From: an uncultured Candidatus Saccharibacteria bacterium
GTDB lineage: Bacteria; Patescibacteriota; Minisyncoccia; Phycocordibacterales; JAKAEA01
Direction: 5' to 3'
Length of the DNA stretch: 64,000 nt
Assembly: GCA_964577595.1 (NCBI GenBank)
Contig: CAZNZK010000001.1
Coordinates: 1,434 to 65,433 of the forward strand
In this document: positions 35,540-58,694 of the stretch, in pieces
Layout: each line of letters opens with the position of its first letter
Numbering within the stretch: the stretch's first letter is position 1
Made by a program: the position numbers and the translations under genes
The notes under the pieces: generated by a model
Told to the model about the DNA's origin: nothing
The model's database searches: none
What the model saw: the letters and a program-made list of their open reading frames with translations, nothing else

Positions 35540-36541
35540 ATGAACATGATTTCATCACGCAGGGCGCTCTCGGCTCTAATTCTCTTTATTAGTGTTGCTT
35601 TTTGCGTACTTCCCACAGTTACGGCTGCCGCGCCAGCCGGCGCAGGTCCATACCACATAGACGGGCTCTCTGTGGAAAGTCGTGGCGATTTTGTGTTGGA
35701 GCCAGCTAAACAAGAGACGTTCCTCAATCCTGGTGACACTGTCACGGAAATCATTTATGTAACCGACCGTGTCCGAGGTACTACTACGTTTAGTATTGGT
35801 ATCCAGGATTTCAAGGGTACTAATGACCCTAATGCGCCCGTGGCGATAGTTCCTCCAGGCCAAAGCGGTCCCGATTCGGGTAAGGATTTTCTCAGCGTGC
35901 CGGCTTCAGAGCTCACTCTTTCTTTTGGTCAGCGGGCCACGATTCCAGTTACGGTTACTGTCCCTAAAGATGCTTCGCCGGGCGGCTATTACGCGGCCGT
36001 CCTTATTTCCAATGAGCCAACGGTGGTGGCTACTAGCTCTACTTCAGTTACCGGTGCTACTCGCGTTATCTCGCGTCTTGGCACTCTCTTTTTCATTCGG
36101 GTTAATGGTCCCGCCAATCCGCAAGGCCAATTGCAGGATTTTCGCATTAATGCACCCACAAGCCGAGCGATTTACAACAGCGGGCCATTCACTTTTGAAA
36201 TGCTTTTCAATAACACCGGCAACCTCTACCTCACGCCTTACGGCACTATTACTATTAAGAATTTTCTCGGTTCAACTATTGCCACCGTGCCGGTGGATGC
36301 CTATTATTCTTTACCACAATCATTGCGCTATCGCGATGTAAGTTGGAATCAATTTGCCTTGTTTGGCCGATATACTGCCACACTCCAGCTTAATCGCAGT
36401 TACGGCGGCACTACTGACACCAAAACCATCGCCTTCTGGGTTATTCCGTGGGAGTTTCTGTTAACCGCTTTTGCTATCCTTTTTGTTGTAATCTTCGGCG
36501 TGATTTTCTTCCTGCGAACCTTTGAAGTGCGGCGAAAGTAA
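35540..36541 (+). CDS. Secreted protein with a cleavable signal peptide and a C-terminal TM anchor followed by RRK
   Basis: The signal peptide is ...VTAAAPAGAG. The C-terminus is FAILFVVIFGVIFFLRTFEVRRK. The architecture resembles DUF916/DUF3324-type cell-surface proteins, but this is inference. Confidence 0.7.
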   Translation: MNMISSRRALSALILFISVAFCVLPTVTAAAPAGAGPYHIDGLSVESRGDFVLEPAKQETFLNPGDTVTEIIYVTDRVRGTTTFSIGIQDFKGTNDPNAPVAIVPPGQSGPDSGKDFLSVPASELTLSFGQRATIPVTVTVPKDASPGGYYAAVLISNEPTVVATSSTSVTGATRVISRLGTLFFIRVNGPANPQGQLQDFRINAPTSRAIYNSGPFTFEMLFNNTGNLYLTPYGTITIKNFLGSTIATVPVDAYYSLPQSLRYRDVSWNQFALFGRYTATLQLNRSYGGTTDTKTIAFWVIPWEFLLTAFAILFVVIFGVIFFLRTFEVRRK

Positions 36542-36548
36542 TTAAACT

Positions 36549-37325
36549 ATGAAGCAGTTTTTGTTCGCGTTCATGGCAATGACGGTGGCGATGATGCTTG
36601 TGTGTATCGCGCGTTTTTTTGTGCCTGTCGCGGTCAGGGCCGCCATGCAAAGCTCAAAGTATGCCATTCCAACCGACAGTATTAATTTCGGTGGCGGCGA
36701 CAGCACCAGCACTAATTTTAGCGAAGAAGACACACTCGGCGAAGTGGGAAGTGGTTTGGGAACAAGCACCAAGTACTCACTCAACGCAGGTTACCAGCAA
36801 ATTTCCGGTTCCAGTATTTCTTTGACGTCAGCGGCCAATGTCACTTTGCCGGCTATTGGCGGTCTTAATTCCGGCACAACTATGGCCAGCTCAACCTGGA
36901 ACGTCACGACCGATGACGCGGCGGGCTATCAGCTTAGTATTCTTTCTGCCACAGCACCCGCTTTGGTAACGCCAGCCCATGCCTATTTCGGCGATTATGC
37001 GCCGAGTGGCGGGGTAGGCTCGGCCGACTTTACTTTCGCAGTAGGTAGCGGCGCTTCCACATTCGGCTTTTCTCCAGAAGGGCCCGACATCGTCAGTCGT
37101 TTTAAAGATACTGGTTCATCCTGTGGCACTGGTTCCAGCGACACGCCCATGGCCTGCTGGGCCGGCTTTACCACCACCAGCCAAACCATCGCCGCCGGTA
37201 GTGGCTACAATTTACCCGCTGGCGCTTCTACCACGGTTGAATATGAGGCTGGCATCGGTTCCAATAAAATTCAAGACGCGGGGACGTATACTGCCACGCT
37301 CACAGTCACCGCTGTCGCGCTGTAA
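36549..37325 (+). CDS. Secreted Ser/Thr/Gly-rich protein, paralog of the 34833 gene
   Basis: There is a signal peptide. The C-terminal motif is GTYTATLTVTAVAL. Confidence 0.7.
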   Translation: MKQFLFAFMAMTVAMMLVCIARFFVPVAVRAAMQSSKYAIPTDSINFGGGDSTSTNFSEEDTLGEVGSGLGTSTKYSLNAGYQQISGSSISLTSAANVTLPAIGGLNSGTTMASSTWNVTTDDAAGYQLSILSATAPALVTPAHAYFGDYAPSGGVGSADFTFAVGSGASTFGFSPEGPDIVSRFKDTGSSCGTGSSDTPMACWAGFTTTSQTIAAGSGYNLPAGASTTVEYEAGIGSNKIQDAGTYTATLTVTAVAL

Positions 37326-37351
37326 GCGCGACAATTTGTTATGATACGGTT

Positions 37352-38500
37352 ATGAAATACCGTTTTTCTGCTTTCTCTTTTTGTGTAGTTGTTTTTGTTT
37401 TTTGCACGCCCCCTCACGTATTTGCCGCTACTGCTCAAAGCGTGTGCGTTAGTTTGTCGGTAGGTAGTACTACCGACGCGGGTGACAATTGCTCGCCGCC
37501 GGTAGCCACGTCCACACCAACCACCACACCAACCACCACGCCGGCAACACCGCCCAGTCCATCAACCGTCACCTCGCCAAGCGCGCTTGCTGGCCCGGCA
37601 ATCATCCCCAACGTTAGTGACATCACTGTGGGCTACCAGGGCAATTCGGTGGTTATCAATTGGCATAATCCAACCGACGCGGCACATTTTTCTGGCGTGC
37701 GCATCGTGCGCTCGTCCTACACCGTGCCGCTCGATCAGTTTTCTGGGAAGGTCGTGTATCAAGGTTCCGGCACGTACGCGCTTGATACGGGTGGCATTCC
37801 CGGCACGGTCTATTACTACACCGCTTTCAGTTATGACGCGGTGGGGAATTATTCCTCAGGCGCTGTCTTTTTTGCCGTCTGGCCGAGCGTCGCCCTGCCG
37901 GTAGTGCCGCAATCGCCTAATCAAACTCAAAATCAATTTCCGGTGCAGTCAGTTTTTCCGCCGCTCTTTCCGCAGACAACAAGCTCGTCGTCGCCGCTGT
38001 TACCAAGCACGGGGGGTCGGCAGCTAATTTTTTCGCTAACAGATATCTCATTCATTCAGGACGGTCGCGTGCTTCTTTTAGCGAATAGCACAATTACAGC
38101 CGACGGCACCATGCCGCTCGTTGTGGCAGTTGCCGACAGTGCTGTCGCTAGAAAAATTTCCGGTGGTTTAGCACGGGCAATGATCGCGATAAATATTCTT
38201 GGTCATGAAAGTGCCTATTTGTTGCGCGAGAGCGCGGCCGACCAGGCTTCAGAAGCTCGTCTGGACTTAACAACGGTGCCAGCCGGCGGTTATCCTTTTG
38301 TGGTGGAATTTTGGCCGAATAGGGGAGAGCCTTTCGCCGTTTCCGGTACTCTTGTGGTTACTGGTTCGTCCACTTCAACTGGTATTTTAGGTACTGGTAT
38401 AAGCTTCGCTCAGCTAGGGAAGTTACTCATCTTGCTTGCCCTATTTTCCATTTTTATTTTACTCATTCATCGCGCCCGCCGTCACCAAAACCAGGGCTAA
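37352..38500 (+). CDS. Surface protein with a signal peptide, TPTTTPTTTP linker, fibronectin-III-like domain and a C-terminal TM anchor
   Basis: The Fn3-like segment is GYQGNSVVINWHNPTDAAHFSGVRIVRSSYTVP...GTVYYYTAFSYDAVGN. The C-terminus is LLILLALFSIFILLIHRARRHQ. Confidence 0.7.
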   Translation: MKYRFSAFSFCVVVFVFCTPPHVFAATAQSVCVSLSVGSTTDAGDNCSPPVATSTPTTTPTTTPATPPSPSTVTSPSALAGPAIIPNVSDITVGYQGNSVVINWHNPTDAAHFSGVRIVRSSYTVPLDQFSGKVVYQGSGTYALDTGGIPGTVYYYTAFSYDAVGNYSSGAVFFAVWPSVALPVVPQSPNQTQNQFPVQSVFPPLFPQTTSSSSPLLPSTGGRQLIFSLTDISFIQDGRVLLLANSTITADGTMPLVVAVADSAVARKISGGLARAMIAINILGHESAYLLRESAADQASEARLDLTTVPAGGYPFVVEFWPNRGEPFAVSGTLVVTGSSTSTGILGTGISFAQLGKLLILLALFSIFILLIHRARRHQNQG

Positions 38501-38597
38501 GTCTCGTTAGCAACAATTCAAAAAACACCCCCATATAGTTAGCCATATTTTTGCTGGCTTTTCCCCACGTACCTGGGGATTTCCTGTGTTTATGTCA

Positions 38598-38667
38598 CCT
38601 CGGCTAAGGTATAATTAGCCTTATAAATAAAGGTTTTTTCCTTGCCGAGGTACCTCGGCAAGCCGAG
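38598..38667 (+). promoter_or_regulatory. Promoter and operator region: TATAAT at 38610-38615; perfect 22-bp palindrome CTTGCCGAGGTACCTCGGCAAG at 38641-38662; extra half-sites CCTCGGC at 38598 and GCCGAG at 38662
   Basis: Read directly from the sequence. It is located between the -10 box and the ATG of the HTH gene. Confidence 0.55.
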
Positions 38668-38679
38668 AAAGCCAACGAA

Positions 38680-39108
38680 ATGGAAATTTTGCAAGATTTT
38701 ATTACGGCAGGTCAGGCGGCGAAGCTCGCTGGCTATAACCCTGATTACGTCAGTCAGCTCATTCGCGCCGGAAAAATTCGCGGAAAAAAAGTCGGTAAAA
38801 ACTGGGTAACAACCCGCCATGAATTAAGCCGCTACATACAAGTAGTAGGTGGTAAGCCTTTGCCGATTATTGGCTCCGGTCAGTCGGGTAGCCGCCGTCG
38901 CAATTGGCGCGGCCGTTTCGTGAGCCCGCTGTTTGTCATTGTGGCCGCTTTCATCGCGGGCTTTTTGGCCTTGGTCGGTTTCGGTGTGTATGCGTCCATT
39001 TACAACCAGGCTTTGAGTTCTGCACAAAACGGCTCACAGGCTTCTTCTACGATGACTGGATCAACGGCCGCCGCGGGCAACATTGTCACTAGCTTGCCGC
39101 AGCTATAA
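38680..39108 (+). CDS. Membrane-anchored helix-turn-helix protein (excisionase/MerR-like HTH_17-type N-terminal domain plus one TM helix)
   Basis: The HTH region is ITAGQAAKLAGYNPDYVSQLIRAGKIRGKKVGKNWV. The TM helix is FVSPLFVIVAAFIAGFLALVGFGVYA. Confidence 0.7.
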   Translation: MEILQDFITAGQAAKLAGYNPDYVSQLIRAGKIRGKKVGKNWVTTRHELSRYIQVVGGKPLPIIGSGQSGSRRRNWRGRFVSPLFVIVAAFIAGFLALVGFGVYASIYNQALSSAQNGSQASSTMTGSTAAAGNIVTSLPQL

Positions 39109-39113
39109 AAATC

Positions 39114-42100
39114 ATGTTCTCCCGCAACAACCAACCGAACAAGATTTTCAAAACAACACTCGTGGTGTTGGCGGTGCTTGTTGCGGCCGTAACCCTTTCC
39201 CTCGCCAGCTTCTTCACGGTTGCTCGCGCCGCTATCAACCCGGAAATTAATTACCAAGGCAAACTCACCACTAACACCGGCACGCTCGTTCCGAACGGTT
39301 CCTACAACGTTGAATTCAAACTCTACACCAACACCGGCACGAACATTTGGACGGAAGATGATCTTGTTTTCAACAGTCAGGGCGTTAGCATTACTAGCGG
39401 GCTTTTCAGCATTATGCTCGGCTCCACCACCGCGTTCACCGGCGTCAACTGGAATCAGACACTCTACCTCGGCGTCAATATCGGTAGCACCACTACCAGC
39501 CCCACCTGGGACGGCGAAATGACGCCGCGCAAAATTCTCGGCACTGTGCCAGCTGCATTTGTGGCACAAACACTTAATGGTCTTTCTTCCAGCGAATTCA
39601 TGCGTTCCGATGCTACCAACTCCACTTCCACCGCGAGCACATTCTTCTCCGTAACCCAAAGCGGTGCCGGTGACATTGCGGATTTTATTGGTCAAAACAG
39701 CGCGCCGGTGCTTTACCTCCAGTCCGGCGGCAGTGTTGGCATCGGCACCTCGTCGCCCTGGACTGCGCTTTCCGTGAAAGGCGCCAGTGACCTCGGTAAT
39801 TTTGCTCAAGCCGGCTACTTCGTTGGCACCACTACCGCAACATCAACCCTCGCTGGGGGCTTGCAAGCACTCGCGCTTAACATCACTTCTTCCACGGCTA
39901 GTTCCACATTTGGTAACGGTATCAATTTAGCGAAAGGTTGCTTCTCAGTCGCTGGTACTTGTCTTACTCAGTCTGCCAACTACTGGACTTCTGCTGGCGG
40001 CAACATCTACAACAACACCGGCACCAATGTTGGCATCGGCACCACTACACCGAATTGGAATTTGCAGGTAGCAGGCCAGAGCCCGGTGATCGCCCTCACC
40101 GACACTGGCGCGCCCGCTAATCAACAACACTGGTTCCTGGAAAGTCAGAATGGGGGATTCACTATTGGCACGAGTAGTAATAATCTCTCAGCCACCACCA
40201 CGTATTTGCGTTTTGACAATACAGCCAGCCGCAACAACACAGCTGTTGGCTTCACCGCGCTTTCGGCGGTGACCACCGGTTCGGCCAACGTTGCTCTCGG
40301 TTATCAGGCGGGTCAAGCTGTCACTGGTGCTTTTGATCAGACGCTTGTGGGTTATCAAGCTGGTTACAACACCACCAATAACACTAGTCAGCAGAATACT
40401 TTCCTTGGCTATCAGTCAGGTTTCAATAACACGACGGGTGCTTACAACACGGCTGTTGGCTCTGCCGCTTTTGCCGCCGGTTCCACTGGCAGTTACAACG
40501 TCCTTGTCGGCGCCAGCGCCGGCTACGGTTTTGCTACGTCTGGCTCCAATTCAAATAACGTCATTATCGGCTACAACGCTGTCGGCGGCGCGGCCGCGGC
40601 TTCCACGGGTAACGATACCGTTGTCGGTTATCAAGCTGGTTATACTCTCAATGGCGGCAACAACAACACGTTGTATGGTTTTCAAACTGGATACGGCCTT
40701 TCAAGCGGCGCGAATAATATTTTCCTTGGCTATCAAACCGCTTCCACCACAAGTAGTGGTTCCAATAATATTGCCATCGGGTATAACATTAATTTACCGA
40801 GCGTTAATGGTTCCAATCAATTAAATATTGGCAATATTTTGTACGGTACAGGGTTGACTGGCTCCCTCACCACTTCTGCTGGCGCCATTGGTGTCGGCAC
40901 GAGTAGCCCATGGGCAACACTTTCTGTGCAGGGTCCGGCGCAAAGCACGAGCCCTCTTTTTGCCATCGGCTCCACCACGAACGCAACTCTCTTCGCTATT
41001 CTGGCTAACGGCTTTGTCGGCATCGGCACGAGCACGCCGGCCAGCGAATTAGCGGTGAGCGGCAATGTTTCCATAAAAGAAACCGCAAATAACAACAACT
41101 GGCTTACGCTTTACAACGCTATTGGTAGCACCACTGGCATTATTCGCGAAAATAGCGGCTCTGGCTCCGGTGGCATTTCAATCCAAGGATTCCGTTCCGG
41201 TGGCAATGGTCAGGCCTTGGCTTTTTACGGCAAAGTACTCAAAGATGACGGCACTGAAGTAGCCGGATCTCTGTTTGATGTTATGCAAGGCACTACGGCT
41301 GTCGGCACTACTGGCAACAATGTCACCAACACCCCGATTGCCGCATTTTGTAATAATTACGAAGGCGGTCTCTTCAGTGCCACCACCACCTGTAAAGTTA
41401 TCTTCAGTGCCGCTGGCAACGTCGGCATCGGCACCACCTCGCCCTGGACTACGCTCTCCGTCAACGGCTCAAGTGACCTCGGCAACTTCGCCCAAGCTGG
41501 CTACTTCATTGGCACCACTACAGCAACGTCAACTCTCGCTGGTGGCTTGCAAGCACTCGCGCTCAACATTACCTCAACAACCGCGAGCTCAACCTTTGCC
41601 AACGGCATCAACCTCGCCAAAGGTTGCTACGCTATCGGTGGTAGTTGTTTGAACGTCAACAACTTCTGGACATCGCTCAGCGGCAATATCTACAACAACA
41701 CCGGCACTAACGTTGGTATTGGTACTAGCACACCGAATGCCTCGCTCTTTGTCACCACGGCTGGTCAGCAAAACGGTAGCTCGCCGCTCTTTACTGTGGC
41801 TTCTACCACTGGCGCCTCACTTTTCACCGTGCTTGCCAACGGCAATGTTGGCGTTGGCACCAGCTCTCCATATGGCGCGCTCGGTATGAATGGCACGGTA
41901 GATGCCACGGCCTTCATCGGTAATGGCGCTGGCCTCACGCAGCTTACCGCCGCTGGCTCGTTGGGCGGTATACAATTTAATGACACCCTCATTCTTAATT
42001 CGGACACTATCAACCAGCCGGGTATTAATGACTCTAGTTACAACGTCACTTCTTTTGTTGTTGCGCACGGTTCCCGCTTCAGTATTGGTAACATAGTTAA

Positions 42101-45100
42101 GCAAGAAGCCAGTACTCCAGAATTAATGCTGGTTACGGCCGTTAGTGGCAACACACTCACGGTCTTCAGGAATTATCCAACGGGAGCTTACCCAACGGGT
42201 CGCTCCCAGCTCCTGAATAACGAAGTGTTGGATATCGTCGCACTTAATCAATTTAATTCCGATGCTACGCTTACGTGGGATAATATCAATAAGCGCTTGG
42301 GCGTTGGCACGACCACATTTAGTGGTAACACCATTTTGGCTATCGGCGGTGTAGCGGCCAATAACAATATTGGTTTGAGTCTGGAGGATGGAGGTGTCTC
42401 ACAAGGGTCACTCGTGCTTGATAACACTGATCAGGTTCTGCTTAGTGCTACGAACGGCTCAGGTTACAACAACATTATTCTTAGCGGTGCGAATATTACT
42501 CTGAATGGAGGCCTCAATTCTGCCACCCTTGATCAAAACGGCACCTTTAATGTCGGCGACCTAGTTGACGGTGGCCAAATCACCGTTGGCGGTGCTACGG
42601 GTGTTGGCGCAACGCTTACCGCAACCGAATTAACTTTGGGGGTTGACGATACAATTACTGCGAATGCTGGCTTTGATGGGGGGCTACTCTTTAATAACGA
42701 CAATACTACTGGTTATCAGTGGGAGTCTAATAATCTTTCCATCGCCACACTTGGTTCTACCGGCAATCTTGCCGCCTCTGGCACCATCGCCGTGCAGGGC
42801 ACTGGCACGAGCACGTTTGCTGGCGGCCTCGCCGCAAACATTTTTAACGCTACTTCTGCGACCGCAAGTTCCACCTTTGCCAACGGCATCAACTTAAAGA
42901 ATGGTTGCTACGCCATCAGTGGCGCTTGTATCGGCACCGGCGCGGCAACACTCACTGGCGGCGTGGCTGGCGCGCTCACGTATTGGACGGGTTCTGGCAC
43001 TGTGGGCGCCACCACATCGCCAACGTTTAATGCTTTCTATGCCACCTCAACCACGGCCACCTCCACCATCGCTGGTGCCCTCACTATTGGCTCGACCAAT
43101 ACCAACATCTACCCCAACGCGCCACTTATTCTGACAGGCAACGTCAATAATGCCAGCCAGTTTGTAATGCAAAATTTGAGCAATGGCAGCAATGCCTCGG
43201 CCGATTTGATCGTGGGTGCTGACCTCATGAACAACAGCTCGTATTACGGCGACCTTGGTTACAACAGCTCTGCTAACACTGCTAGCGCGTACACTGGCTT
43301 TGCCGCTAACGACCTCTATCTCTATTCCAGTGACAGTAATCTTGACTTGGCCGCCGCAAGCACTACCGGCCCCGCCAGTATCAACTTCCTCACGGGCGGC
43401 ACTTTGGCGGCGAATGTCCGCATGACCATTGGCAATACCGGTAACGTCGGCATCGGCACTACGAGCCCCTACGCCCGCCTCTCTGTGTGGGGAGCAAACG
43501 CTCTTTCCGGCAGTAATCTTTTCCTGCTTGCCAACAATGCTTCAACGACACTCTTCGCGGTTGATGGCGCCGGCAACGTAAACATTCCTGTGGCGACTGC
43601 CACCACCACTATCGCTGGCGGCTTTGATGTCGGCAACGGCTCGCTCCACTATGAATCGTCCACCGGTCAAACTAATATCAGCAATCTCCAGATAGGGGCT
43701 CTTTCATTCCCGAGCGATTCCGGTGTGCTCACTTGGGCCGACATGCCGGTGACCACGGCTTCAGCCATGGGCACGCTGGAAAGTTACAGTGCTAACATTG
43801 ATGGTAGTGTTCTTTTGACAATTGCGGCGCAGGCAGATGGCTTGGGCGGTATCCAAAACGCCGGTATCGGTATCGGTACGACGAGCCCGATGGCCACCTT
43901 AGCCGTTCAGGGGTTGACCGGTACCACAACGCCGTATCTTTTTGCCGTTGCTAGTTCCACGGGGCAAACATACTTAACTATTGATAATAACGGCACTACT
44001 ACAATTCGGGGAAACTTGGTTGTCTACGGTAATATCGTTCCAGGAAACACGGATACGTATAGTCTTGGTACGGCTTCTTCTACGACGGAATGGAAGAGTT
44101 TGTACGTGGCAACCTCAACGATTTATTTGGGTGGGACGGCCGTAAGTATCAGTAATGGTAGTTTGCTCGTGGGCGGTAATCCGGTGACTGGCGGCGGAGC
44201 CACCACTGAGAAATGGGCAACATCTACCGATCTCACCTCTATATATACCAATACCGCCACCAAAATTGGCATCGGCACGTCGTCGCCTTGGGCAACCCTA
44301 TCCATCACCGGTTCTTCCGATCTTGGTAACTTTGCTCAGGCTGGATACTTCACAGCAACAAGCACGACTGGCACTAGCTATTTCGCGGGCAAGGTTGGTG
44401 TTGCTTCCAGTACTCCTTACGCGAATCTCTCCGTTTCCAGTCTTTCTCAACAAGTTGGCACTTTGCCGCTCTTCCAGGTTGGTAGCACCACTAACGCTTC
44501 GCTCTTTAATGTTCTTGGCAACGGCAATGTCGGCATTGGCACCACTTCACCGTATTCATTCCTTTCAATTCAGACGCCATCCAGTTTTGCCGGTCAGATT
44601 ATTGATATCTCCACCAGTGCTGGCGCGTCACTTCTCCATCTAACGAACGCTGGTAATCTTGGCCTTGGCACCACTTCGCCGTGGAGCACCTTCTCCGTCA
44701 AAGGCTCTTCCGACCTCGGCAACTCCGCTTTGGCCGGCTACTTCACGGGCACCAGCACAGCAACCAGCACGTTCACCGGTGGCCTCGCCGCAAACATCTT
44801 CAACGCTACTTCTGCGACCGCCTCTTCCACCTTCGCCAACGGCATCAACCTTACGAACGGTTGCTACGCCATTGCGGGCACTTGTTCCACTATTGGTTCC
44901 GGCTCTGCTGGCTGGTTGTCATATTACGCCGGTACTGGCCAGGCGCTTACCGCCACCTCTTCCATCTTCCTTGCTACTAGCGGCAACGTTGGTGTCGGTT
45001 CTACCACGCCCTATGCCACGCTTTCCGTTTCCACCCCTGGCCAACAAATTGGCACCCTGCCGCTCTTCCAGGTCGCCTCAACCACCAAGGCCGCCATCTT

Positions 45101-46640
45101 CAGTGTCTTTGGCAACGGTCTTGTTGGCATCGGTAGTAGCACGCCATGGGCATCGCTCGGTATCTCTACACTCGCCCAGCAAGCTGGCACGCTGCCGCTC
45201 TTTAGTGTGGCTTCTACGACAGGCGCACAAATCTTCACGGTTACGGGCAACGGCACGTTTACCTATGGTGTCAACTCAACGTCCACCATTCCTAACAACA
45301 CTACTGGCGCTTGGATAATTTCTACCTCAACAGCCGCCAATGCCACACCGCTCTTTAGGATTGATACAACGACCAATGCTGAAAAAATTGTCCTCGGCAC
45401 AGCCTCGAGTAGCGACGTGATTATTGGCGATAACGGCATTTCACCCAACCTCGTCTTCTACAACAGTGGCACTATCAAGGGCTTTACCAGCGGCGGTTCA
45501 ACCATCACACTCGGTTCCGGCAACGACATCATCAACTCCGCGGTCAAATTCGGCATCGGTTCTACCAGCCCGTGGCGCGCACTTTCCGTTAACGGCACGG
45601 CCGCCTTTACCGGTCTTACATCTTCGGTTACTGGCACTGCGGTATGTATCGCCGCCGGCACGGGTGAGCTCTTGAACTCTGGCGGCTCTAGCTGTACGCC
45701 GTCATCAATTCGTTTCAAAGAAAACGTCAACACACTAAGTCCGGGCTTTGCTCTTAATGAGCTTGATGAATTACGCGTGGTCTCTTTTGATTACAAGCCC
45801 GGCGATTATCCTACGTGGGATAGCCCGCATTCTTACGGTATGATTGCTGAAGAGGTTCAGCAGATTGACCCAACCTTGGTAGATTATGGTAGCGATGGTC
45901 AGCCCTTCTCCTTGCGCTTTGAAAAAATCACCGGTCTTACTGTGCAAGCCATTCAGGAATTGAATTTGAATTTGGAGACAATCGCTTCCACTACTGCAAG
46001 CACGACGCCGGAATCACAAGGTTTTGCCAGCGCCTTCTTCGGTAATTTGTTCCACCAAATCAGCACCTGGCTGGCCAGCACCACTAACGGCATCAGCGAC
46101 CTCTATGCCACTGTCTTCCATAGTAATGAAGTAGATACTAACAAGCTTTGCGTTGGCACAACCTGCGTTACGCAACAGCAATTTATGGCGATGGTAAATG
46201 CTTCAGTCAATAATGGGGGAGGTTCGTCTGGTACCACTTTTAGCGGATCTAGCGTCGGCACCGGTAGTACAAGTGGAACAACGGGTGGCACTACTACGAC
46301 AGCTGGCACCACAACCACGGCCACGAGTACCGACACAACCACGAGTTCGGGTACTGGTTCGGACACGGCCACAACCACTCCCGTGACCACGACAGGTGGG
46401 GGTGATTCTGGCACGACATCCGCCACAACAACCGATACTACAACTAACACAACAACCGGCGACACGAATACTAATCCGGCTACGCCGACTACCGATACAA
46501 CCACCACAAGCACCGACACCACATCCACCACTAATACAACCAGCTCAACTGACACCACGAGCGCAACCGATGCGTCCACACCAGCGCCAACAACTCCCGC
46601 GCCCAGTTCTGACACAACGAGCCCAACCACGACACCATAA
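39114..46640 (+). CDS. Giant (2508 aa) tail-fibre-like surface protein: signal anchor, conserved N-terminal INYQGKLT module, many repeats of the (N)VGIGT(T/S)SP(W/Y)..LSV type, a C-terminal peptidase-S74-like intramolecular chaperone (CIMCD) domain, then a ~140-aa Thr-rich tail
   Basis: The N-terminal TM helix is followed by AINPEINYQGKLTTNTGTLVPNGSYNVEFKLY. The repeat unit ...GIGTSSPWT.LSV.G.SDLGNFAQAGYF.GTTTATST... recurs. A Ser-Lys dyad, SSIRFK, is encoded at 45702-45719. The region around that dyad through DELRVVSFDYKPGDY...GMIAEEVQQIDP resembles the endosialidase CIMCD. The T-rich tail spans about 46210-46637. Confidence 0.9.
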   Translation: MFSRNNQPNKIFKTTLVVLAVLVAAVTLSLASFFTVARAAINPEINYQGKLTTNTGTLVPNGSYNVEFKLYTNTGTNIWTEDDLVFNSQGVSITSGLFSIMLGSTTAFTGVNWNQTLYLGVNIGSTTTSPTWDGEMTPRKILGTVPAAFVAQTLNGLSSSEFMRSDATNSTSTASTFFSVTQSGAGDIADFIGQNSAPVLYLQSGGSVGIGTSSPWTALSVKGASDLGNFAQAGYFVGTTTATSTLAGGLQALALNITSSTASSTFGNGINLAKGCFSVAGTCLTQSANYWTSAGGNIYNNTGTNVGIGTTTPNWNLQVAGQSPVIALTDTGAPANQQHWFLESQNGGFTIGTSSNNLSATTTYLRFDNTASRNNTAVGFTALSAVTTGSANVALGYQAGQAVTGAFDQTLVGYQAGYNTTNNTSQQNTFLGYQSGFNNTTGAYNTAVGSAAFAAGSTGSYNVLVGASAGYGFATSGSNSNNVIIGYNAVGGAAAASTGNDTVVGYQAGYTLNGGNNNTLYGFQTGYGLSSGANNIFLGYQTASTTSSGSNNIAIGYNINLPSVNGSNQLNIGNILYGTGLTGSLTTSAGAIGVGTSSPWATLSVQGPAQSTSPLFAIGSTTNATLFAILANGFVGIGTSTPASELAVSGNVSIKETANNNNWLTLYNAIGSTTGIIRENSGSGSGGISIQGFRSGGNGQALAFYGKVLKDDGTEVAGSLFDVMQGTTAVGTTGNNVTNTPIAAFCNNYEGGLFSATTTCKVIFSAAGNVGIGTTSPWTTLSVNGSSDLGNFAQAGYFIGTTTATSTLAGGLQALALNITSTTASSTFANGINLAKGCYAIGGSCLNVNNFWTSLSGNIYNNTGTNVGIGTSTPNASLFVTTAGQQNGSSPLFTVASTTGASLFTVLANGNVGVGTSSPYGALGMNGTVDATAFIGNGAGLTQLTAAGSLGGIQFNDTLILNSDTINQPGINDSSYNVTSFVVAHGSRFSIGNIVKQEASTPELMLVTAVSGNTLTVFRNYPTGAYPTGRSQLLNNEVLDIVALNQFNSDATLTWDNINKRLGVGTTTFSGNTILAIGGVAANNNIGLSLEDGGVSQGSLVLDNTDQVLLSATNGSGYNNIILSGANITLNGGLNSATLDQNGTFNVGDLVDGGQITVGGATGVGATLTATELTLGVDDTITANAGFDGGLLFNNDNTTGYQWESNNLSIATLGSTGNLAASGTIAVQGTGTSTFAGGLAANIFNATSATASSTFANGINLKNGCYAISGACIGTGAATLTGGVAGALTYWTGSGTVGATTSPTFNAFYATSTTATSTIAGALTIGSTNTNIYPNAPLILTGNVNNASQFVMQNLSNGSNASADLIVGADLMNNSSYYGDLGYNSSANTASAYTGFAANDLYLYSSDSNLDLAAASTTGPASINFLTGGTLAANVRMTIGNTGNVGIGTTSPYARLSVWGANALSGSNLFLLANNASTTLFAVDGAGNVNIPVATATTTIAGGFDVGNGSLHYESSTGQTNISNLQIGALSFPSDSGVLTWADMPVTTASAMGTLESYSANIDGSVLLTIAAQADGLGGIQNAGIGIGTTSPMATLAVQGLTGTTTPYLFAVASSTGQTYLTIDNNGTTTIRGNLVVYGNIVPGNTDTYSLGTASSTTEWKSLYVATSTIYLGGTAVSISNGSLLVGGNPVTGGGATTEKWATSTDLTSIYTNTATKIGIGTSSPWATLSITGSSDLGNFAQAGYFTATSTTGTSYFAGKVGVASSTPYANLSVSSLSQQVGTLPLFQVGSTTNASLFNVLGNGNVGIGTTSPYSFLSIQTPSSFAGQIIDISTSAGASLLHLTNAGNLGLGTTSPWSTFSVKGSSDLGNSALAGYFTGTSTATSTFTGGLAANIFNATSATASSTFANGINLTNGCYAIAGTCSTIGSGSAGWLSYYAGTGQALTATSSIFLATSGNVGVGSTTPYATLSVSTPGQQIGTLPLFQVASTTKAAIFSVFGNGLVGIGSSTPWASLGISTLAQQAGTLPLFSVASTTGAQIFTVTGNGTFTYGVNSTSTIPNNTTGAWIISTSTAANATPLFRIDTTTNAEKIVLGTASSSDVIIGDNGISPNLVFYNSGTIKGFTSGGSTITLGSGNDIINSAVKFGIGSTSPWRALSVNGTAAFTGLTSSVTGTAVCIAAGTGELLNSGGSSCTPSSIRFKENVNTLSPGFALNELDELRVVSFDYKPGDYPTWDSPHSYGMIAEEVQQIDPTLVDYGSDGQPFSLRFEKITGLTVQAIQELNLNLETIASTTASTTPESQGFASAFFGNLFHQISTWLASTTNGISDLYATVFHSNEVDTNKLCVGTTCVTQQQFMAMVNASVNNGGGSSGTTFSGSSVGTGSTSGTTGGTTTTAGTTTTATSTDTTTSSGTGSDTATTTPVTTTGGGDSGTTSATTTDTTTNTTTGDTNTNPATPTTDTTTTSTDTTSTTNTTSSTDTTSATDASTPAPTTPAPSSDTTSPTTTP
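39753..40055 (+). repeat. Intragenic ~300-nt direct repeat, copy 1 (about 85% identical to 41439-41737)
   Basis: Read directly from the sequence. A third, more diverged copy lies at about 44270-44420. Another pair lies at about 42830-42900 and 44770-44860. Confidence 0.7.
41439..41737 (+). repeat. Intragenic ~300-nt direct repeat, copy 2
   Basis: This copy aligns with 39753-40055 nearly codon for codon. Confidence 0.7.
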
Positions 46641-47701
46641 TGTTAAAAACACCCACAATAAAAAAAATAAACCGGTGCCTGACCCCCATTCTTATTTTCG
46701 TTATACTTTTTTCGTTTCCAGGCGTGCTTGAAGCGGCGGCTATCAACGGCTACACGGTTGTATTTATAACCAACGGCACCACGAGTTGGGTGCCCCGTAG
46801 TGATTGGAACCCGGCTTCAAATACGGTGGAGCTTATTGCCGGCGGCGGCGCGGGGGCGAGTGGGTTAAACGCCACAAGCTCCACTGCGTCCCCGGGTGGC
46901 GGTGGTGGTGCGGGAGGCGCGTACGTTAAACTTTCCAACGTTAGTTTGGTTGTTGGCGACGTGGTGCAAATGTCCGTGGGCGCGGGCGGAGCCACGAGCA
47001 CGCTTACCTCAACGGCCGGCGGCGACACGTGGTTTTGGTCAAACACTTTTGCGCTCGCCAAAGGTGGCGGTGGAGCCTCAACGACCAGTAACTATGATGG
47101 CGGTGCCACCACGACTGGTTCGCTTGGTCCAATAATAAAAAACGGAGGCTATGGTGGCGGTAGTGGCGGTGTTGGTGGCTCTACGTGTACGGCAAGTGGC
47201 GGTGGCGGTGGCGGCGGCGGCGCGGCGGGGCCGGACAAGTCGGGTGTGGCTGCGGCCACGAGCACAGCCAGCACGTGTACCACAACAAACACTGCCGGCA
47301 CTGTCGGCGGCACTGCTGATGGTGCAATAGTTGCCGGCGGCACAGCTGGCGCGGCGGGAGGTGCTGGTGCAATTGGTGGTAAAGGCGGTGCTGGTACTGC
47401 TGGAAGTATGTACACAGCCAACCCTGTTGGCACAACGGGCGGCTCAGGAAGCGGCGGCGGCGGGGGAGGCGGTGCTAAAAGTACATTTGCCGGCGGTGGC
47501 GGAGGCTTGGCCGGTAACTATGGTGGCGGTGGCGGTGGAGGTGGGGGTGCAGGAGGCACTGCCGCAACTAAAGGCGGCCCTGGCGCCAACGGCGCTCCTG
47601 GCCTTATTGTTATCAGTTTTACTGAATTAGCTAGCACTACTGCGCGGCGAATCCGCTTGCTCGGCGGTGTTACATTTTTAGGTGGCGTCCGGCTTTACTA
47701 A
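46640..47701 (+). CDS. Secreted Gly-rich protein (GGxGG-type low-complexity repeats), translationally coupled to the giant gene (TAATG)
   Basis: The signal peptide is MLKTPTIKKINRCLTPILIFVILFSFPGVLEA. The body is G-rich and the C-terminus reads GGPGANGAPGLIVISF. Confidence 0.7.
   Translation: MLKTPTIKKINRCLTPILIFVILFSFPGVLEAAAINGYTVVFITNGTTSWVPRSDWNPASNTVELIAGGGAGASGLNATSSTASPGGGGGAGGAYVKLSNVSLVVGDVVQMSVGAGGATSTLTSTAGGDTWFWSNTFALAKGGGGASTTSNYDGGATTTGSLGPIIKNGGYGGGSGGVGGSTCTASGGGGGGGGAAGPDKSGVAAATSTASTCTTTNTAGTVGGTADGAIVAGGTAGAAGGAGAIGGKGGAGTAGSMYTANPVGTTGGSGSGGGGGGGAKSTFAGGGGGLAGNYGGGGGGGGGAGGTAATKGGPGANGAPGLIVISFTELASTTARRIRLLGGVTFLGGVRLY
46670..46685. repeat. Half-copy, in reverse orientation, of the GGGTCAGGCACCGGTT repeat family, embedded in the signal-peptide codons of the 46640 gene
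   Basis: It reads AACCGGTGCCTGACCC and matches 16 of 16 positions. With flanks, 21 of 22 positions match copy A. Confidence 0.7.
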
Positions 47702-47718
47702 AAACACTTTATATATAC

Positions 47719-48321
47719 ATGCAACGCCGAACTCTCTTTCTTTCCATAATAGCCATCTGCTTGGTTGCGTTGGCACTTGTCGCGATATTCTTTATATATG
47801 TATATCATCACGCCGATCCAGAATCTCTTGCACGTGTTGACGTGCCTGGCCCTGCCGTTCCCACTAGCCCCATGATTGCTGAAACTCTGCCTGATGGCCA
47901 GAAATCCTATGTCAATAAGTACTATCATTTCTCGCTAGTATATCCACCCGATCTTGCTCTTACGGAATATGCTGAAGCCGGCGGCGGTCGCACTATCGTT
48001 TTTCAGGAAAACCCGGCCACTAATACGCCTATTTCAGCCCAGAAAAATCTCAACGGTTTCCAAATTTTCATCATTCCCTATGCCGACTCGGAGCTTTCCG
48101 ATGCCCGTTTCAAGATGGATGAACCCTCCGGCATTCATGATGACCCGCAGAATGTCGTCATTGGCGGTGTCACCGGCACTATTTTTTACGGCCGCAACTC
48201 CATCATGGGGGACACGCGCGAGCTCTGGATAATCCACGGTGGTTTTCTCTATGAAATCACCACATATAAGCCCCTGGATTCTTGGCTCGCTGGTATAATG
48301 AGCACCTGGAAATTCCTATAA
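47719..48321 (+). CDS. Hypothetical protein with an N-terminal TM helix
   Basis: The TM helix is LFLSIIAICLVALALVAIFFIYVY. A TATA-rich box lies immediately upstream of the ATG. Confidence 0.55.
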   Translation: MQRRTLFLSIIAICLVALALVAIFFIYVYHHADPESLARVDVPGPAVPTSPMIAETLPDGQKSYVNKYYHFSLVYPPDLALTEYAEAGGGRTIVFQENPATNTPISAQKNLNGFQIFIIPYADSELSDARFKMDEPSGIHDDPQNVVIGGVTGTIFYGRNSIMGDTRELWIIHGGFLYEITTYKPLDSWLAGIMSTWKFL

Positions 48322-48322
48322 A

Positions 48323-50533
48323 ATGAAAAAATATTTCTCAAAAATTTCTATAGTGCCCGCCATCTTCATTGTTGTGGCTTGCGTCGCGCCGCAGGCCGCC
48401 AAGGCTGCGGTTATTCAGGCGCCAATTTCTCTCGGCACCCTCGGTAATGGTCTTGTTGACTACTACACTATGGATGGCGTGAATATCAACTGGGGTACTG
48501 GCGTGGTTGCTGATAATTCTAATCATGGTAACACTGGCATTGTGACTAATATGGGCACGACGACGTCGCCTGTGGCAGGGAAGGTTGGGCAAGCGCTTAC
48601 TTTTAATGGTACGAATCAATACGTGAATGCTTCGGGAATACCATCGGTCAGTAACCCGCTTACTGTTGCCGTTTGGATTAATCCATCAGCACTTTCCCAA
48701 TCAAGTTTTAGCGCTGGCTCCGGAGGCACTATTATTGATGAAAATGAAGGCGGCGGAACCAGTGGTTGGGTTCTTGGTGTAAAAAATAATAACACCGTCT
48801 GGTTCTGGCCTTCTTCTGGTAATGATAAATACAGCACGGCGACCATTCCACTTAATACTTGGACGCATGTGGTGATAACCTACGATGGCACCAATATCCG
48901 TTTTTATATTAACGGTGGGCTTGATAGCACTCAGGTCATGTCTGCTCCCCAGGGGTCGGCCACCTTTTTCCGGGTAGGCGGAAAATCGTGGATAACGGGC
49001 TATTGGAAGGGTGGTTTGGACGATGTGCGTATCTATAATCGGGCGCTTTCAACTGCCGAGGCAAAACAGCTCTATGGTCTTGGTACCAGTAAAACTAACG
49101 CCGTCTCTTCGGCGAGTCCTTTGGCTAGCGGCTTGATTGGTTACTACACCCTAGACACCGCGAATATTAATTGGGGTACCGGCGCTGTCGCCGATAGTTC
49201 TGGTAATGGTCACACGGGCACAGTGACCAACTTAAGCACGCCAGCTTCAGTCGTGACGGGGCAGATCGGGCAGGGAATCTCATTTACCGGTAGTAATCAA
49301 TATATTGACACTACCAACTATGCCGACAATCCCAGCAATCTTTCTGTTGCTGGGTGGTTTAAATCCGGTGGAGATCAGACTCATAGTTTCTTGGTTGACA
49401 AAATGAGTAATTTTGGCAACGGGGCGGGTTGGACAGTGTATTTCAACCAAATATCCGGCGGAATGGAAATAGGTTTTGTAACTCAGGAAGCCGGCGGGAG
49501 TAATTGGGAGCAATACCAAAATCATTCTGATATTCCCGCTGATGGGCTATGGCACCATTTTGTGGCAACTCTCAGCGGTGGTCCTGGTAATGGAGGTATC
49601 ATTCTCATTTATATCGATGGATCGAGTGTGTCGCTGGACAATCTCAGTCGTGGAACATTTACCACTATAACTACCGCTGTCAATGTTAGAATGGGTAATG
49701 ACAGTGATGTAGAAAAGCAATTTATTGGTTCTCTCGATGATGTCCGTGTGTATAATCGCACTCTTTCTGCCACTGAGGTGAGTCAGCTTTATGCGCTTAC
49801 AACCAATACTGCTATCACGAAAGCGGCACCGGTGTACCTCAACACGTCATTAACGGGCGTGGGTGGCACGTTGACCCGCGGCCTTGTTGGTTATTGGACA
49901 ATGGACGGCGCAAATATTAATTGGAAAACTGCTGCAGTCGCTGATAACTCTGGCTATAGCAATGTTGGTGCGATGGTTACTATGAGCACGAGCACATCGC
50001 CTGTGGCAGGGAAAATTGGCCAGGCACTTAATTTCGTAAAATCTTTTTCACAGTATGTGAGTGTTCCTAGTAGCGTGATTACTCCACTCGTGACCACTGG
50101 CCTGGCCTCGGTTGCTTTTTGGATGAAGCCGGCGACGCTCGCGAGCTATTCTGCGCCTTTTGATTGCGGTCAAAGCGGCACATCTCGTCAGCTCAGTATG
50201 CTTATTAATAGCGCCGGTGGCGGCACCGTGGCCGCCAAAGGTGTTGCTGGTGCCGCCGCCACCTATTCTCCCGCTTGGACAATCGGTCAATGGCAGTTTG
50301 TAGTCATGACTGTTGATGCGACGAATTTCAAAACATATAAAAACGGCGTGCTCAACAGCACTACGGCTGGTGCGATTGGTTCTGGTTTTACCGACACCAG
50401 CGCCATTTGCCAGGTAGGAGGTAATCCCAGTGGCGGGGGTTCTAGTTTTGACGGTTCCATTGACGACGTTCGCGTCTATAACCGCGTACTCACCGCAGGC
50501 GAAATCACCCAGCTCTACAATCTCAGCAAATAA
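48323..50533 (+). CDS. Secreted protein with three tandem concanavalin-A-like/LamG (Laminin_G_3-like) domains
   Basis: There is a signal peptide. The three repeats each start (L)VDYYTMDG/LIGYYTLD/LVGYWTMDG..NINW..AVAD.SG...G. Each ends (L/I)DDVRVYNR.L...E..QLY. The ATG is 1 nt after the upstream stop. Confidence 0.85.
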   Translation: MKKYFSKISIVPAIFIVVACVAPQAAKAAVIQAPISLGTLGNGLVDYYTMDGVNINWGTGVVADNSNHGNTGIVTNMGTTTSPVAGKVGQALTFNGTNQYVNASGIPSVSNPLTVAVWINPSALSQSSFSAGSGGTIIDENEGGGTSGWVLGVKNNNTVWFWPSSGNDKYSTATIPLNTWTHVVITYDGTNIRFYINGGLDSTQVMSAPQGSATFFRVGGKSWITGYWKGGLDDVRIYNRALSTAEAKQLYGLGTSKTNAVSSASPLASGLIGYYTLDTANINWGTGAVADSSGNGHTGTVTNLSTPASVVTGQIGQGISFTGSNQYIDTTNYADNPSNLSVAGWFKSGGDQTHSFLVDKMSNFGNGAGWTVYFNQISGGMEIGFVTQEAGGSNWEQYQNHSDIPADGLWHHFVATLSGGPGNGGIILIYIDGSSVSLDNLSRGTFTTITTAVNVRMGNDSDVEKQFIGSLDDVRVYNRTLSATEVSQLYALTTNTAITKAAPVYLNTSLTGVGGTLTRGLVGYWTMDGANINWKTAAVADNSGYSNVGAMVTMSTSTSPVAGKIGQALNFVKSFSQYVSVPSSVITPLVTTGLASVAFWMKPATLASYSAPFDCGQSGTSRQLSMLINSAGGGTVAAKGVAGAAATYSPAWTIGQWQFVVMTVDATNFKTYKNGVLNSTTAGAIGSGFTDTSAICQVGGNPSGGGSSFDGSIDDVRVYNRVLTAGEITQLYNLSK

Positions 50534-58691: not shown

Positions 58692-58694
58692 TTT

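What the first reader, a model, noticed from the sequence alone, without database searches (positions are those of the whole stretch)
38598..38667. Perfect 22-bp palindrome with extra half-sites between the -10 box and the ATG of a membrane-anchored HTH gene
The perfect palindrome CTTGCCGAGGTACCTCGGCAAG lies at 38641-38662, centred on GGTACC. A third half-site, GCCGAG, lies at 38662 and a fourth, CCTCGGC, at 38598. All sit downstream of a TATAAT box and 18 nt upstream of the ATG of the excisionase-family HTH protein, which carries a TM helix. This is a textbook autoregulatory operator geometry. The HTH gene heads a surface-protein operon of about 12 kb, so the site probably controls expression of the giant adhesin locus. 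A membrane-tethered HTH could couple an envelope signal to that expression.
Basis: partly seen in the sequence, partly recalled or inferred. Interest (0 to 1): 0.55.

Follow-up and report, generated by a model that had tools for sequence, protein, structure and literature searches.

The report
Conserved dyad motif before membrane HTH
The 22-bp palindrome is real, and it is the junction of two copies of a short CCGAG-based dyad motif that recurs in front of genes for the same membrane-anchored, DNA-binding-type protein across the Patescibacteria (CPR), so it is most likely that protein's own operator, although binding has not been tested.

Summary
CTTGCCGAGGTACCTCGGCAAG is a perfect 22-bp palindrome at 38641-38662, unique in the window. 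It lies between a TATAAT box (38610-38615) and the ATG (38680) of a 142-aa protein with an N-terminal winged HTH and one TM helix.

Comparative analysis changes what the element is. Leaders of homologous HTH-TM genes in 164 Patescibacteria loci carry an ~18-bp motif, ATmTCGG-N4-CCGAkAT. It is 38-63 times denser there than elsewhere. It usually starts 5-20 nt after the -10 box and is often present twice.

In the window the canonical unit is CCTCGG-CAAG-CCGAGA (38653-38668). The palindrome is the abutment of the 3' arm of a degenerate first unit with the 5' arm of this unit.

Across 85 instances the arms do not covary and the would-be loop is among the best-conserved variable positions. The motif occurs in both orientations, and in two loci upstream of the -10. 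These points favour a double-stranded DNA protein site.

The HTH fold matches the dsDNA binders TraN, BldC, RacA and Xis. Autoregulation is therefore the best reading (about 0.45).

An RNA leader hairpin remains a live rival, on G-U asymmetry and two covarying pairs in four close relatives. Signal coupling across the envelope is unsupported.

The parts
38559..38589 (+). End of the upstream transcription unit. It holds a terminator-like hairpin, TCCCCACGTACCTGGGGA (38562-38579), followed by a T-rich tail. It overlaps a degenerate DnaA-box-like 9-mer, TTTTCCCCA (38559-38567).
   Evidence: The terminator scan is. The 9-mer lies where relatives have TTATCCCCA or TTATCCACA. That box is enriched upstream of HTH genes.
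38598..38604 (-). Isolated half-site CCTCGGC (GCCGAGG on the minus strand). It abuts the -10 box from upstream.
   Evidence: Sequence. L084 and L086 have a full motif copy in the same position, TTTCTCGGATAyCCGAGGTGkTATAAT. The sequence model did not score this site as a full unit.
38610..38615 (+). Probable -10 box, TATAAT.
   Evidence: Sequence. It aligns with the GATATAAT, GATAAAAT and GATATACT boxes of relatives. There is no good -35, and the scan did not call it.
38641..38662 (.). It consists of the unit-1 spacer and 3' arm (CTTG CCGAGG), then TA, then the unit-2 5' arm and spacer (CCTCGG CAAG).
   Evidence: The decomposition comes from the alignment with relatives.
38653..38668 (+). Canonical conserved dyad unit, CCTCGG-CAAG-CCGAGA. 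It is the best match in the window to the family-wide motif.
   Evidence: PWM: 19.3 bits on the + strand against 13.5 on the - strand. The next best site in the window scores 16.4 and lies in coding sequence. Sequence-only model R1: 11.5 bits, E 0.02, top hit in the window. This site was 1 of the 85 training rows.
38632..38673 (+). Extended imperfect 42-nt dyad, or a two-tier hairpin if transcribed. The outer stem is GGUUUUUUC/GAGAAAGCC with two G-U pairs. The inner stem is 9 bp. The 3' side covers the purine tract GAGAAAG, 9-15 nt before the ATG.
   Evidence: RNA fold on the + strand gives -28.4 kcal/mol, z -4.9. The minus strand gives -20, z -1.5. L167, L168 and L003 share the same architecture.
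38680..39108 (+). Gene for a 142-aa bitopic protein. Residues about 5-57 form a Xis/MerR-type winged HTH. An Arg-rich stretch, SRRRNWRGRF, follows, then one TM helix and a tail of about 35 residues outside the membrane.
   Evidence: The AF2 model has pLDDT 96-97 over residues 10-50. Foldseek hits are TraN, BldC, RacA, Xis and RdfS. The N-in topology is inferred from the positive-inside rule.
39114..50533 (+). Four tightly packed downstream genes of 2508, 353, 200 and 736 aa. The 2508-aa protein has a Peptidase_S74 chaperone domain. The 736-aa protein has three Laminin_G_3 domains.
   Evidence: The ortholog locus L163 has a 4119-aa gene overlapping the end of the HTH gene.

Best explanation
What it is:
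The palindrome is part of a cluster of binding sites on double-stranded DNA for a sequence-specific protein, most likely the winged-HTH protein encoded immediately downstream.

The unit of recognition:
- The unit is a roughly 16-18-bp dyad: TCTCGG/TATCGG, then N4, then CCGAGA/CCGATA.
- This locus has one complete unit at 38653-38668.
- It also has the 3' arm of a decayed first unit at 38645-38650 and a lone half-site at 38598-38604 against the -10 box.
- Because the two units abut without a spacer, the arms CCGAGG and CCTCGG form the perfect palindrome.

Proposed mechanism:
The N-terminal domain of the protein faces the cytoplasm and is held at the membrane by one TM helix. It occupies these sites next to the promoter and in the initially transcribed region, roughly +20 to +47 if transcription starts about 7 nt after the -10. 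This throttles transcription of its own gene and of the co-transcribed giant surface-protein genes, giving negative autoregulation.

Shown:
- The sequence features themselves.
- Conservation of the motif and its association with this gene family.
- The lack of arm covariation across the family.
- The fold of the domain.

Inferred:
- That the protein binds the motif.
- The sign of the regulation.
- The transcription start site.
- The membrane topology.
For: 1. Association. The strict pattern T[CT]G-N5-CCGA[GT]A occurs at 2.40 per kb in the 300 nt upstream of HTH coding sequence, against 0.063 per kb elsewhere, in 164 loci. In the 84 loci fetched after the pattern was fixed, the figures are 2.74 against 0.055 per kb. 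A PWM gives 169 upstream sites against 41 elsewhere (3.03 against 0.048 per kb), and 106 of 164 loci have a site.

2. One-to-one in this window. There is one HTH gene and one motif cluster. In seven relatives' loci (56 kb) every model hit with E below 0.1 lies in the HTH leader.

3. True ortholog. L163 has 50% protein identity and conserved synteny: dnaG, rpoD, DsbA, RNase H, four unknown genes, the HTH gene, then a giant gene. Its leader carries GATATCGGCAATCCGAGGTC, 12 nt, then AATCTCGGATACCCGAGTAA.

4. A sequence motif rather than a structure.
- In 105 unique instances the would-be loop TAT is 78-90% conserved.
- Pair 8/21 is exactly independent: AG 40, AT 22, CG 22, CT 12.
- On 85 instances 76.5% of cells pair against 77.0% in shuffles, and the covariation score is 0.087 against 0.095. 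Between 392 and 400 of 500 shuffles score at least as high.

5. Orientation is not fixed. 34 of 169 upstream sites face the other way. Bit scores on the two strands show clear reversals: L084 16.5 against 8.5, L086 16.4 against 10.6, L163 15 against 9.4, L003 13.8 against 8.7.

6. Untranscribed copies. In L084 and L086 a full copy abuts an extended -10, directly after a terminator, so it is probably not transcribed. The window's 38598 half-site sits in the same place.

7. Position. The first copy starts 5-20 nt after the -10 in 57 of 98 leaders.

8. Fold. The AF2 model has the order beta, helix, helix, beta-hairpin wing, helix, at pLDDT 96-97. The top Foldseek hits, at probability 1.00, are dsDNA-binding TraN, BldC, RacA, Pukovnik Xis and RdfS.
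Against: - No binding data exist. The association could arise if another factor controls these genes.
- Most sites (112 of 145 unique) lie downstream of a -10-like box and so are transcribed. Only one lineage, L084/L086, shows an untranscribed copy.
- In the four closest leaders (window, L167, L168, L003) a two-tier hairpin is kept. Two pairs covary, and 83.5% of cells pair against 79.0% in shuffles, reached by 19 of 500 shuffles.
- In the window the + strand RNA folds much better than the - strand because of G-U pairs. Both this point and the one above fit an RNA role.
- The motif also occurs away from HTH genes in some genomes, for example upstream of a gene whose predicted product looks GatB-like in L016, and in intergenic repeats in Kaiserbacteria-like loci.
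- Some HTH subfamilies lack the motif.
- The enrichment statistics were computed on loci chosen for carrying the gene, and some loci from the two collections duplicate each other.
- The Pfam HTH_17 score is below the gathering cut-off.
- The 22-mer itself could not be tested for conservation, because no relative closer than about 50% protein identity was found.
Confidence: 0.45

Rival explanations
1. The element acts as RNA. Transcribed from the TATAAT promoter, bases 38632-38673 fold into a stable two-tier hairpin in the 5' UTR. The hairpin either protects the long operon mRNA from 5'-end-dependent decay or masks the purine tract GAGAAAG just before the ATG to limit translation. A protein recognising the RNA motif might be involved.
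For: - The + strand fold is -28.4 kcal/mol (z -4.9, 0 of 200 shuffles as good). The minus strand gives -20 (z -1.5). The difference comes from two G-U pairs in the outer stem.
- L167, L168 and L003 have the same outer-plus-inner stem architecture.
- Pairs 9-50 (GC three times, UA once) and 10-49 (AU twice, UA, UG) covary. The covariation score is 0.183 against 0.111, reached by 28 of 500 shuffles.
- 112 of 145 unique sites lie downstream of a -10-like box.
- Second copies often sit 15-30 nt before the start codon.
Against: - There is no covariation over 85 diverse instances, and the loop is better conserved than the arm positions that vary.
- The commonest state of one 'pair' is an A-G mismatch.
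- The conserved 10-mer TATCCGAGAT occurs in both orientations, which would give different RNAs.
- A copy lies upstream of the -10 in L084 and L086.
- No Rfam family matches.
- The support from close relatives rests on four sequences. The tool's own documentation says such scores arise by relatedness alone in 5-25% of cases.
Confidence: 0.25
2. The motif is a DNA site for a different, unidentified Patescibacteria regulator that controls surface-protein loci. The HTH-TM module is a cargo or partner of those loci, and the downstream protein does not bind the site.
For: - Strong copies occur away from HTH genes: upstream of a gene whose predicted product looks GatB-like in L016, and in other intergenic regions of L041, L056, L061, L067, L071, L072, L079, L080 and L082.
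- Several HTH subfamilies have no motif.
- A second conserved element, TGTGGATAA/TTATCCACA, is also enriched upstream of these genes. More than one factor may therefore act here.
Against: - The motif follows the HTH domain whatever the rest of the protein looks like, from small TM proteins to giants of 1000-3900 aa.
- Some of the 'other' copies turned out to precede further HTH genes, in L045, L073 and L082.
- No alternative regulator is conserved next to these loci.
Confidence: 0.12
3. The HTH-TM protein binds the sites to hold its own locus at the membrane rather than to regulate it. This would be RacA-like anchoring that favours co-translational export of the giant proteins encoded next door.
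For: - RacA, a chromosome-anchoring winged HTH that binds inverted repeats, is among the top structural matches.
- The HTH-TM module is fused directly to giant exported proteins in 75 of 176 cases. In about half of the remaining cases it is followed by a large ORF.
- The sites are in cis to the gene.
Against: - This is pure inference.
- The window holds one site cluster and no array.
- Nothing here distinguishes anchoring from repression.
Confidence: 0.08
4. The element is an intrinsic terminator of the upstream gene, or a chance palindrome without function.
For: The palindrome is a G+C-rich hairpin in an intergenic region.
Against: - No T-run follows the hairpin on either strand. The T-run precedes it.
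- The terminator scan called a different hairpin, at 38562-38579.
- 0 of 100 shuffles gave the palindrome.
- Its half-sites are homologous to a motif conserved across a superphylum.
Confidence: 0.03

Closest known systems
Minimal Xis/MerR-type winged-helix DNA binders: BldC (Streptomyces), phage and ICE excisionases (Pukovnik Xis, RdfS), TraN of pIP501, RacA of Bacillus subtilis
   Same: - The fold order is the same: beta, helix, helix, two-strand wing, helix.
- Foldseek probability is 1.00, with rmsd 1.6-3.2 A over 49-58 columns.
- All of these bind specific double-stranded DNA repeats, direct or inverted, often as several protomers on clustered sites. That matches the clustered half-sites here.
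   Different: - Sequence identity is only 12-27%. There is no PDB hit by sequence.
- The Pfam HTH_17 score is below threshold.
- None of those proteins is an integral membrane protein.
- No integrase or mobile-element context is present here. The locus is chromosomal and syntenic, so the protein is not an excisionase in function.
Membrane-bound one-component transcription regulators (ToxR, CadC, TcpP; BcrR of Enterococcus), from my own knowledge
   Same: - An N-terminal cytoplasmic DNA-binding domain is tethered by a transmembrane segment.
- These regulators act directly at promoters, including their own regulon, without a kinase.
   Different: - Those use OmpR-type or XRE-type domains, not a Xis/MerR-type one.
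- They have a real sensor domain or several TM helices. This protein has only about 35 residues outside the membrane, or, in fused homologues, a giant surface protein instead of a sensor.
RodZ (bitopic HTH-TM cell-shape protein), from my own knowledge
   Same: The layout is the same: a cytoplasmic N-terminal HTH, one TM helix and an extracytoplasmic tail.
   Different: - RodZ's XRE-type HTH binds MreB, not DNA, and no operator accompanies its gene.
- Here a conserved DNA motif tracks the gene family, which a purely protein-binding HTH would not explain.
5'-UTR stem-loops that stabilise mRNA or mask ribosome-binding sites (for example the ompA and aprE leaders), from my own knowledge
   Same: A stable hairpin near the 5' end of a long transcript, whose 3' side reaches to 6 nt before the start codon.
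   Different: Those elements are defined by structure, not sequence. Here the sequence is conserved without covariation across the family, and orientation varies.

Membership tests
Pfam HTH_17 / excisionase-MerR superfamily winged helix | Significant match to the family profile | tested here: inconclusive
   E 1.8e-5 and 25.3 bits, against a gathering cut-off of 27. The precomputed annotation lists PF12728 for this protein and for P0002.
Pfam HTH_17 / excisionase-MerR superfamily winged helix | Fold: beta strand, two helices, beta-hairpin wing, C-terminal helix | tested here: met
   The AF2 model shows E7-9, H10-17, H21-29, E35-38, E41-45, H46-57, at pLDDT 96-97. The top PDB matches are TraN, BldC, RacA, Xis and RdfS at probability 1.00.
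Excisionase (recombination directionality factor) in function | Encoded in a mobile element next to an integrase and att sites | tested here: not met
   The neighbours are rpoB, rpoC, dnaG, rpoD, a UvrD-family helicase-nuclease, DsbA, RNase H, bipA and kup. None of the 27 neighbouring ORFs scanned against Pfam matched an integrase. The locus is syntenic in L163, L168 and L169.
Autoregulatory operator | Lies within or next to the promoter of the regulator's own gene | tested here: met
   The half-sites lie from 38598 to 38668, flanking the TATAAT at 38610-38615 and upstream of the ATG at 38680. The TSS was not mapped.
Autoregulatory operator | Site conserved upstream of orthologous regulators | tested here: met
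   This holds for the CCGAG dyad unit. It does not hold for the 22-bp palindrome, which was found only in this population.
Autoregulatory operator | The regulator binds the site and changes transcription | not testable with these tools
   This needs EMSA, DAP-seq and reporter assays.
Membrane-bound one-component regulator (ToxR/CadC/BcrR type) | Cytoplasmic DNA-binding domain plus a transmembrane anchor | tested here: met
   The HTH spans residues about 5-57. The Arg-rich stretch SRRRNWRGRF follows, then a hydrophobic helix from residue 83. The topology is inferred from the positive-inside rule.
Membrane-bound one-component regulator (ToxR/CadC/BcrR type) | Extracytoplasmic or membrane-embedded sensor domain | tested here: not met
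   Only about 35 low-complexity residues follow the TM helix, at pLDDT 55-61. No Pfam domain was found there.
Cis-regulatory structured RNA | Base pairs supported by covariation | tested here: not met
   Family-wide, 76.5% of cells pair against 77.0% in shuffles, and 392 of 500 shuffles score as high. A weak positive signal appears only in four close relatives.
Cis-regulatory structured RNA | Match to a described RNA family | tested here: not met
   Rfam 15 gave only noise in the window region (E 0.93 and 1.9). It gave nothing at the motif in 15 loci.
Intrinsic terminator | G+C-rich hairpin followed by a U-run | tested here: not met
   The hairpin is followed by CCGAGAAAGCCAACGAAATG, and the T-run precedes it. 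The scan did not call it.
RacA-like chromosome anchor | Many dispersed binding sites on the chromosome | tested here: inconclusive
   There is one cluster in 64 kb. The rest of the genome was not available.

The most novel reading that the evidence does not exclude
A Patescibacteria-wide family of membrane-anchored Xis/MerR-type winged-helix modules stands alone in some genomes and is fused to giant surface proteins in others. In this reading the module binds a conserved dyad at the 5' end of its own gene. Its purpose is to tether the gene to the membrane, so that multi-thousand-residue surface proteins are transcribed, translated and exported in one place. Classical repression would be only a side effect.
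Probability: 0.08. Interest if true: 0.85.

Novelty: new variant of a known kind. Interest (0 to 1): 0.6.

Why it matters
Patescibacteria (CPR) make up a large share of bacterial diversity, live mostly attached to other cells, and have almost no characterised gene regulation. Their giant surface proteins are prime candidates for host attachment.

This analysis links three things:
- an uncharacterised but very widespread HTH-TM module, with 1813 relatives at E of 0.001 or better;
- the giant surface-protein genes it precedes or is fused to;
- a defined ~18-bp DNA motif.

That gives a concrete, testable regulator-and-operator pair for this group, and a PWM that could be used to map a regulon in thousands of MAGs. 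If the protein does bind the motif, it would be a membrane-tethered transcription factor built on a Xis/MerR-type domain, an arrangement not represented among the solved structures or in the literature searched here.

Tried and rejected
- Terminator reading: rejected, because no U-run follows the hairpin.
- Known RNA family: Rfam gave nothing.
- Mobile-element excisionase with att or Xis sites: rejected, because the context is chromosomal and syntenic and no scanned neighbour matched an integrase.
- Regulon search with the palindrome:
  - there is no second copy in the window with up to 3 mismatches;
  - the 16-mer core occurs in none of 168 other loci;
  - the 18-mer is absent from IMG/VR;
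  - the source genome is not among the GTDB representatives scanned, and its contig was not returned by the metagenome scan, so a whole-genome regulon scan was not possible.
- Close relatives to test conservation of the 22-mer: the 90%-cluster search found only the protein itself. The closest relatives are 49-51% identical.
- Sequence search of the PDB: no significant hit.
- Literature: three full-text searches found nothing on this family or motif.
- Correlating motif presence with recognition-helix residues: the motif is subfamily-specific, but the signal was not clean, partly because long N-terminal extensions hid some motifs.
- TTATCCACA as an origin marker: it is not enriched in the window as a whole, at 16 copies against 11.9 expected.

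Full report
**1. The observation**

The stretch read contains CTTGCCGAGGTACCTCGGCAAG at 38641-38662. This is a perfect 22-bp palindrome.
- It is unique in the window even with three mismatches, and no shuffle reproduced it.
- It is the only perfect zero-gap palindrome with 11-nt arms among the inverted repeats listed for the window.
- TATAAT is at 38610-38615 and the ATG is at 38680.

Two corrections apply.
- The 38598 half-site is upstream of the TATAAT box and abuts it. It is not downstream.
- GCCGAGG is a common 7-mer here, with 22 copies against 7.7 expected. Lone half-sites therefore mean little by themselves.

**2. The gene and its setting**

The ORF at 38680-39108 encodes 142 residues.
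- It has a sub-threshold HTH_17 match (E 1.8e-5, 25.3 bits against a cut-off of 27).
- An Arg-rich stretch follows, then one hydrophobic helix and a low-complexity tail of about 35 residues.
- AlphaFold2, run on a 31-sequence alignment, gives a confident domain at pLDDT 96-97. Its order is beta, helix, helix, wing, helix, and a long TM helix follows.
- The best PDB matches are TraN, BldC, RacA, Pukovnik Xis and RdfS, at Foldseek probability 1.00. All are binders of specific double-stranded DNA.

Four tightly packed genes follow, running to 50533.
- One encodes a 2508-aa protein with a Peptidase_S74 domain.
- Another encodes a 736-aa protein with three Laminin_G_3 domains.

The window carries rpoB, rpoC, dnaG, rpoD, DsbA and RNase H, and none of the ORFs scanned against Pfam matched an integrase. 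All relatives found are Patescibacteria. The 'excisionase' label therefore describes a fold, not a function.

**3. Relatives**

- The word-indexed search found only the protein itself.
- Exhaustive HMMER found 1813 relatives. Many have one to three N-terminal HTH repeats, a TM helix and up to 3936 residues.
- I fetched 80 loci from species-representative genomes and 80 from metagenomes.
- I also fetched the contigs of the closest proteins.
- L163 (50% identity) is a true ortholog. It shares the order dnaG, rpoD, DsbA, RNase H, four unknown genes, HTH, then a giant gene of 4119 aa.

**4. The key finding**

The leaders of these genes share a conserved element. Its consensus is A-T-(A/C)-T-C-G-(G/T)-N-T-A-T-C-C-G-A-(G/T)-A-T.

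Enrichment:
- The strict pattern occurs at 2.40 per kb in the 300 nt upstream of HTH coding sequence, against 0.063 per kb elsewhere. This is a 38-fold difference, and 90 of 164 loci have a hit.
- In the 84 loci fetched after the pattern was fixed, the figures are 2.74 against 0.055 per kb.
- A PWM gives 169 upstream sites against 41 elsewhere, a 63-fold difference, with a site in 106 of 164 loci.

Position:
- The first copy usually starts 5-20 nt after a TATAAT box.
- A second copy often lies 40-60 nt after the box.

The window has one HTH gene and one cluster of the motif.

**5. What the palindrome is**

Aligned with relatives, the leader consists of two dyad units.
- In the ortholog L163 they are GATATCGG-CAAT-CCGAGGTC and AATCTCGG-ATAC-CCGAGTAA, 12 nt apart.
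- In the window, unit 2 is intact: CCTCGG-CAAG-CCGAGA at 38653-38668. It is the best PWM and model hit in the window.
- Unit 1 keeps only its spacer and 3' arm (CTTG-CCGAGG), after a degenerate T-run.
- The two units abut with only TA between them.

L167 and L003 show the mirror case. Unit 1 is intact and the 5' arm of unit 2 has decayed.

The 38598 half-site occupies the position where L084 and L086 carry a full copy against an extended -10.

The exact palindrome was found only in the two other assemblies of the same population and not in IMG/VR.

**6. DNA site or RNA structure?**

For DNA:
- Across 105 unique instances the would-be loop TAT is 78-90% conserved.
- The variable 'pair' 8/21 is statistically independent.
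- On 85 instances, pairing and covariation equal the shuffled controls.
- The conserved 10-mer occurs in both orientations.
- One lineage has a copy upstream of the -10.

For RNA:
- Most copies are transcribed.
- The window's + strand folds into a 42-nt two-tier hairpin (-28.4 kcal/mol, z -4.9). This is much better than the minus strand, because of two G-U pairs.
- The four closest leaders keep the same architecture and show two covarying pairs. With four sequences this is weak evidence.

The two roles are not exclusive. Any dyad operator downstream of the start site is also a hairpin in the mRNA.

**7. Verdict**

The best explanation is a cluster of double-stranded DNA sites bound by the adjacent membrane-anchored winged-helix protein, giving autoregulation of the HTH and giant surface-protein operon. 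I put this at about 0.45.

Rivals:
- an RNA leader hairpin (0.25);
- a site for another factor (0.12);
- membrane tethering of the locus (0.08);
- a terminator or chance (0.03).

The real unit differs from the palindrome. Binding is untested. Envelope-signal coupling has no support, because almost nothing of the protein lies outside the membrane.

I found no Rfam family, no solved homologue by sequence and no paper describing the motif or family.

Noticed in passing
window 34758-34766 and 38559-38567; L163 4762 and 8823; many loci: A DnaA-box-like 9-mer is enriched in the 350 nt upstream of HTH genes. TGTGGATAA occurs at 0.64 per kb against 0.033 elsewhere, and TTATCCACA at 0.26 against 0.046. 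It sits about 25-50 nt upstream of the -10. In the window an exact copy precedes the four-gene cluster at 34833, as it does in L163 and L168. Only a degenerate TTTTCCCCA precedes the HTH promoter.
   Followed up: partly
window 34833-38500: Four consecutive genes of 221, 333, 258 and 382 aa have no significant Pfam match. They are syntenic immediately upstream of the HTH gene in L163, L168 and L169/L170. This suggests a conserved module together with the HTH and giant genes.
   Followed up: partly
L009, L010, L011, L013, L015, L018, L093, L096 and similar leaders: In Paceibacteria-type leaders a run of 5-7 T follows the first motif copy by 3-8 nt. This could be a leader attenuator or an intrinsic DNA bend between the two sites.
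   Followed up: no
L016, L071, L072, L079, L080, L082: In Kaiserbacteria-like genomes strong copies of the motif also occur in other intergenic regions, sometimes several in a row. One lies 176 nt upstream of a gene whose predicted product looks GatB-like in L016.
   Followed up: partly
window 57393-59666: Genes for cytochrome bd oxidase subunits I and II are present in what otherwise looks like a Patescibacteria genome.
   Followed up: no
window 28209-28238: A perfect 13-nt inverted repeat with a 4-nt loop, GGGGCGGGTCACA/TGTGACCCGCCCC, lies at the annotated start of the UvrD-family helicase-nuclease ORF. It may be the terminator of the preceding gene, in which case the real start would be later.
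   Followed up: no
window 3684-4200: Four copies of GCCGAGG lie within about 520 bp on the + strand. This suggests a repeat in coding sequence.
   Followed up: no
window 36000-50000: GC skew is negative from about 36 to 46 kb and turns positive after about 48 kb, with the cumulative minimum near 46-48 kb. The turning point falls at the 3' end of the giant gene and may reflect gene composition rather than an origin or terminus.
   Followed up: no
L050 3251-3416 (minus strand): A cobalamin riboswitch lies about 600 nt upstream of the HTH-giant gene, on the opposite strand.
   Followed up: no
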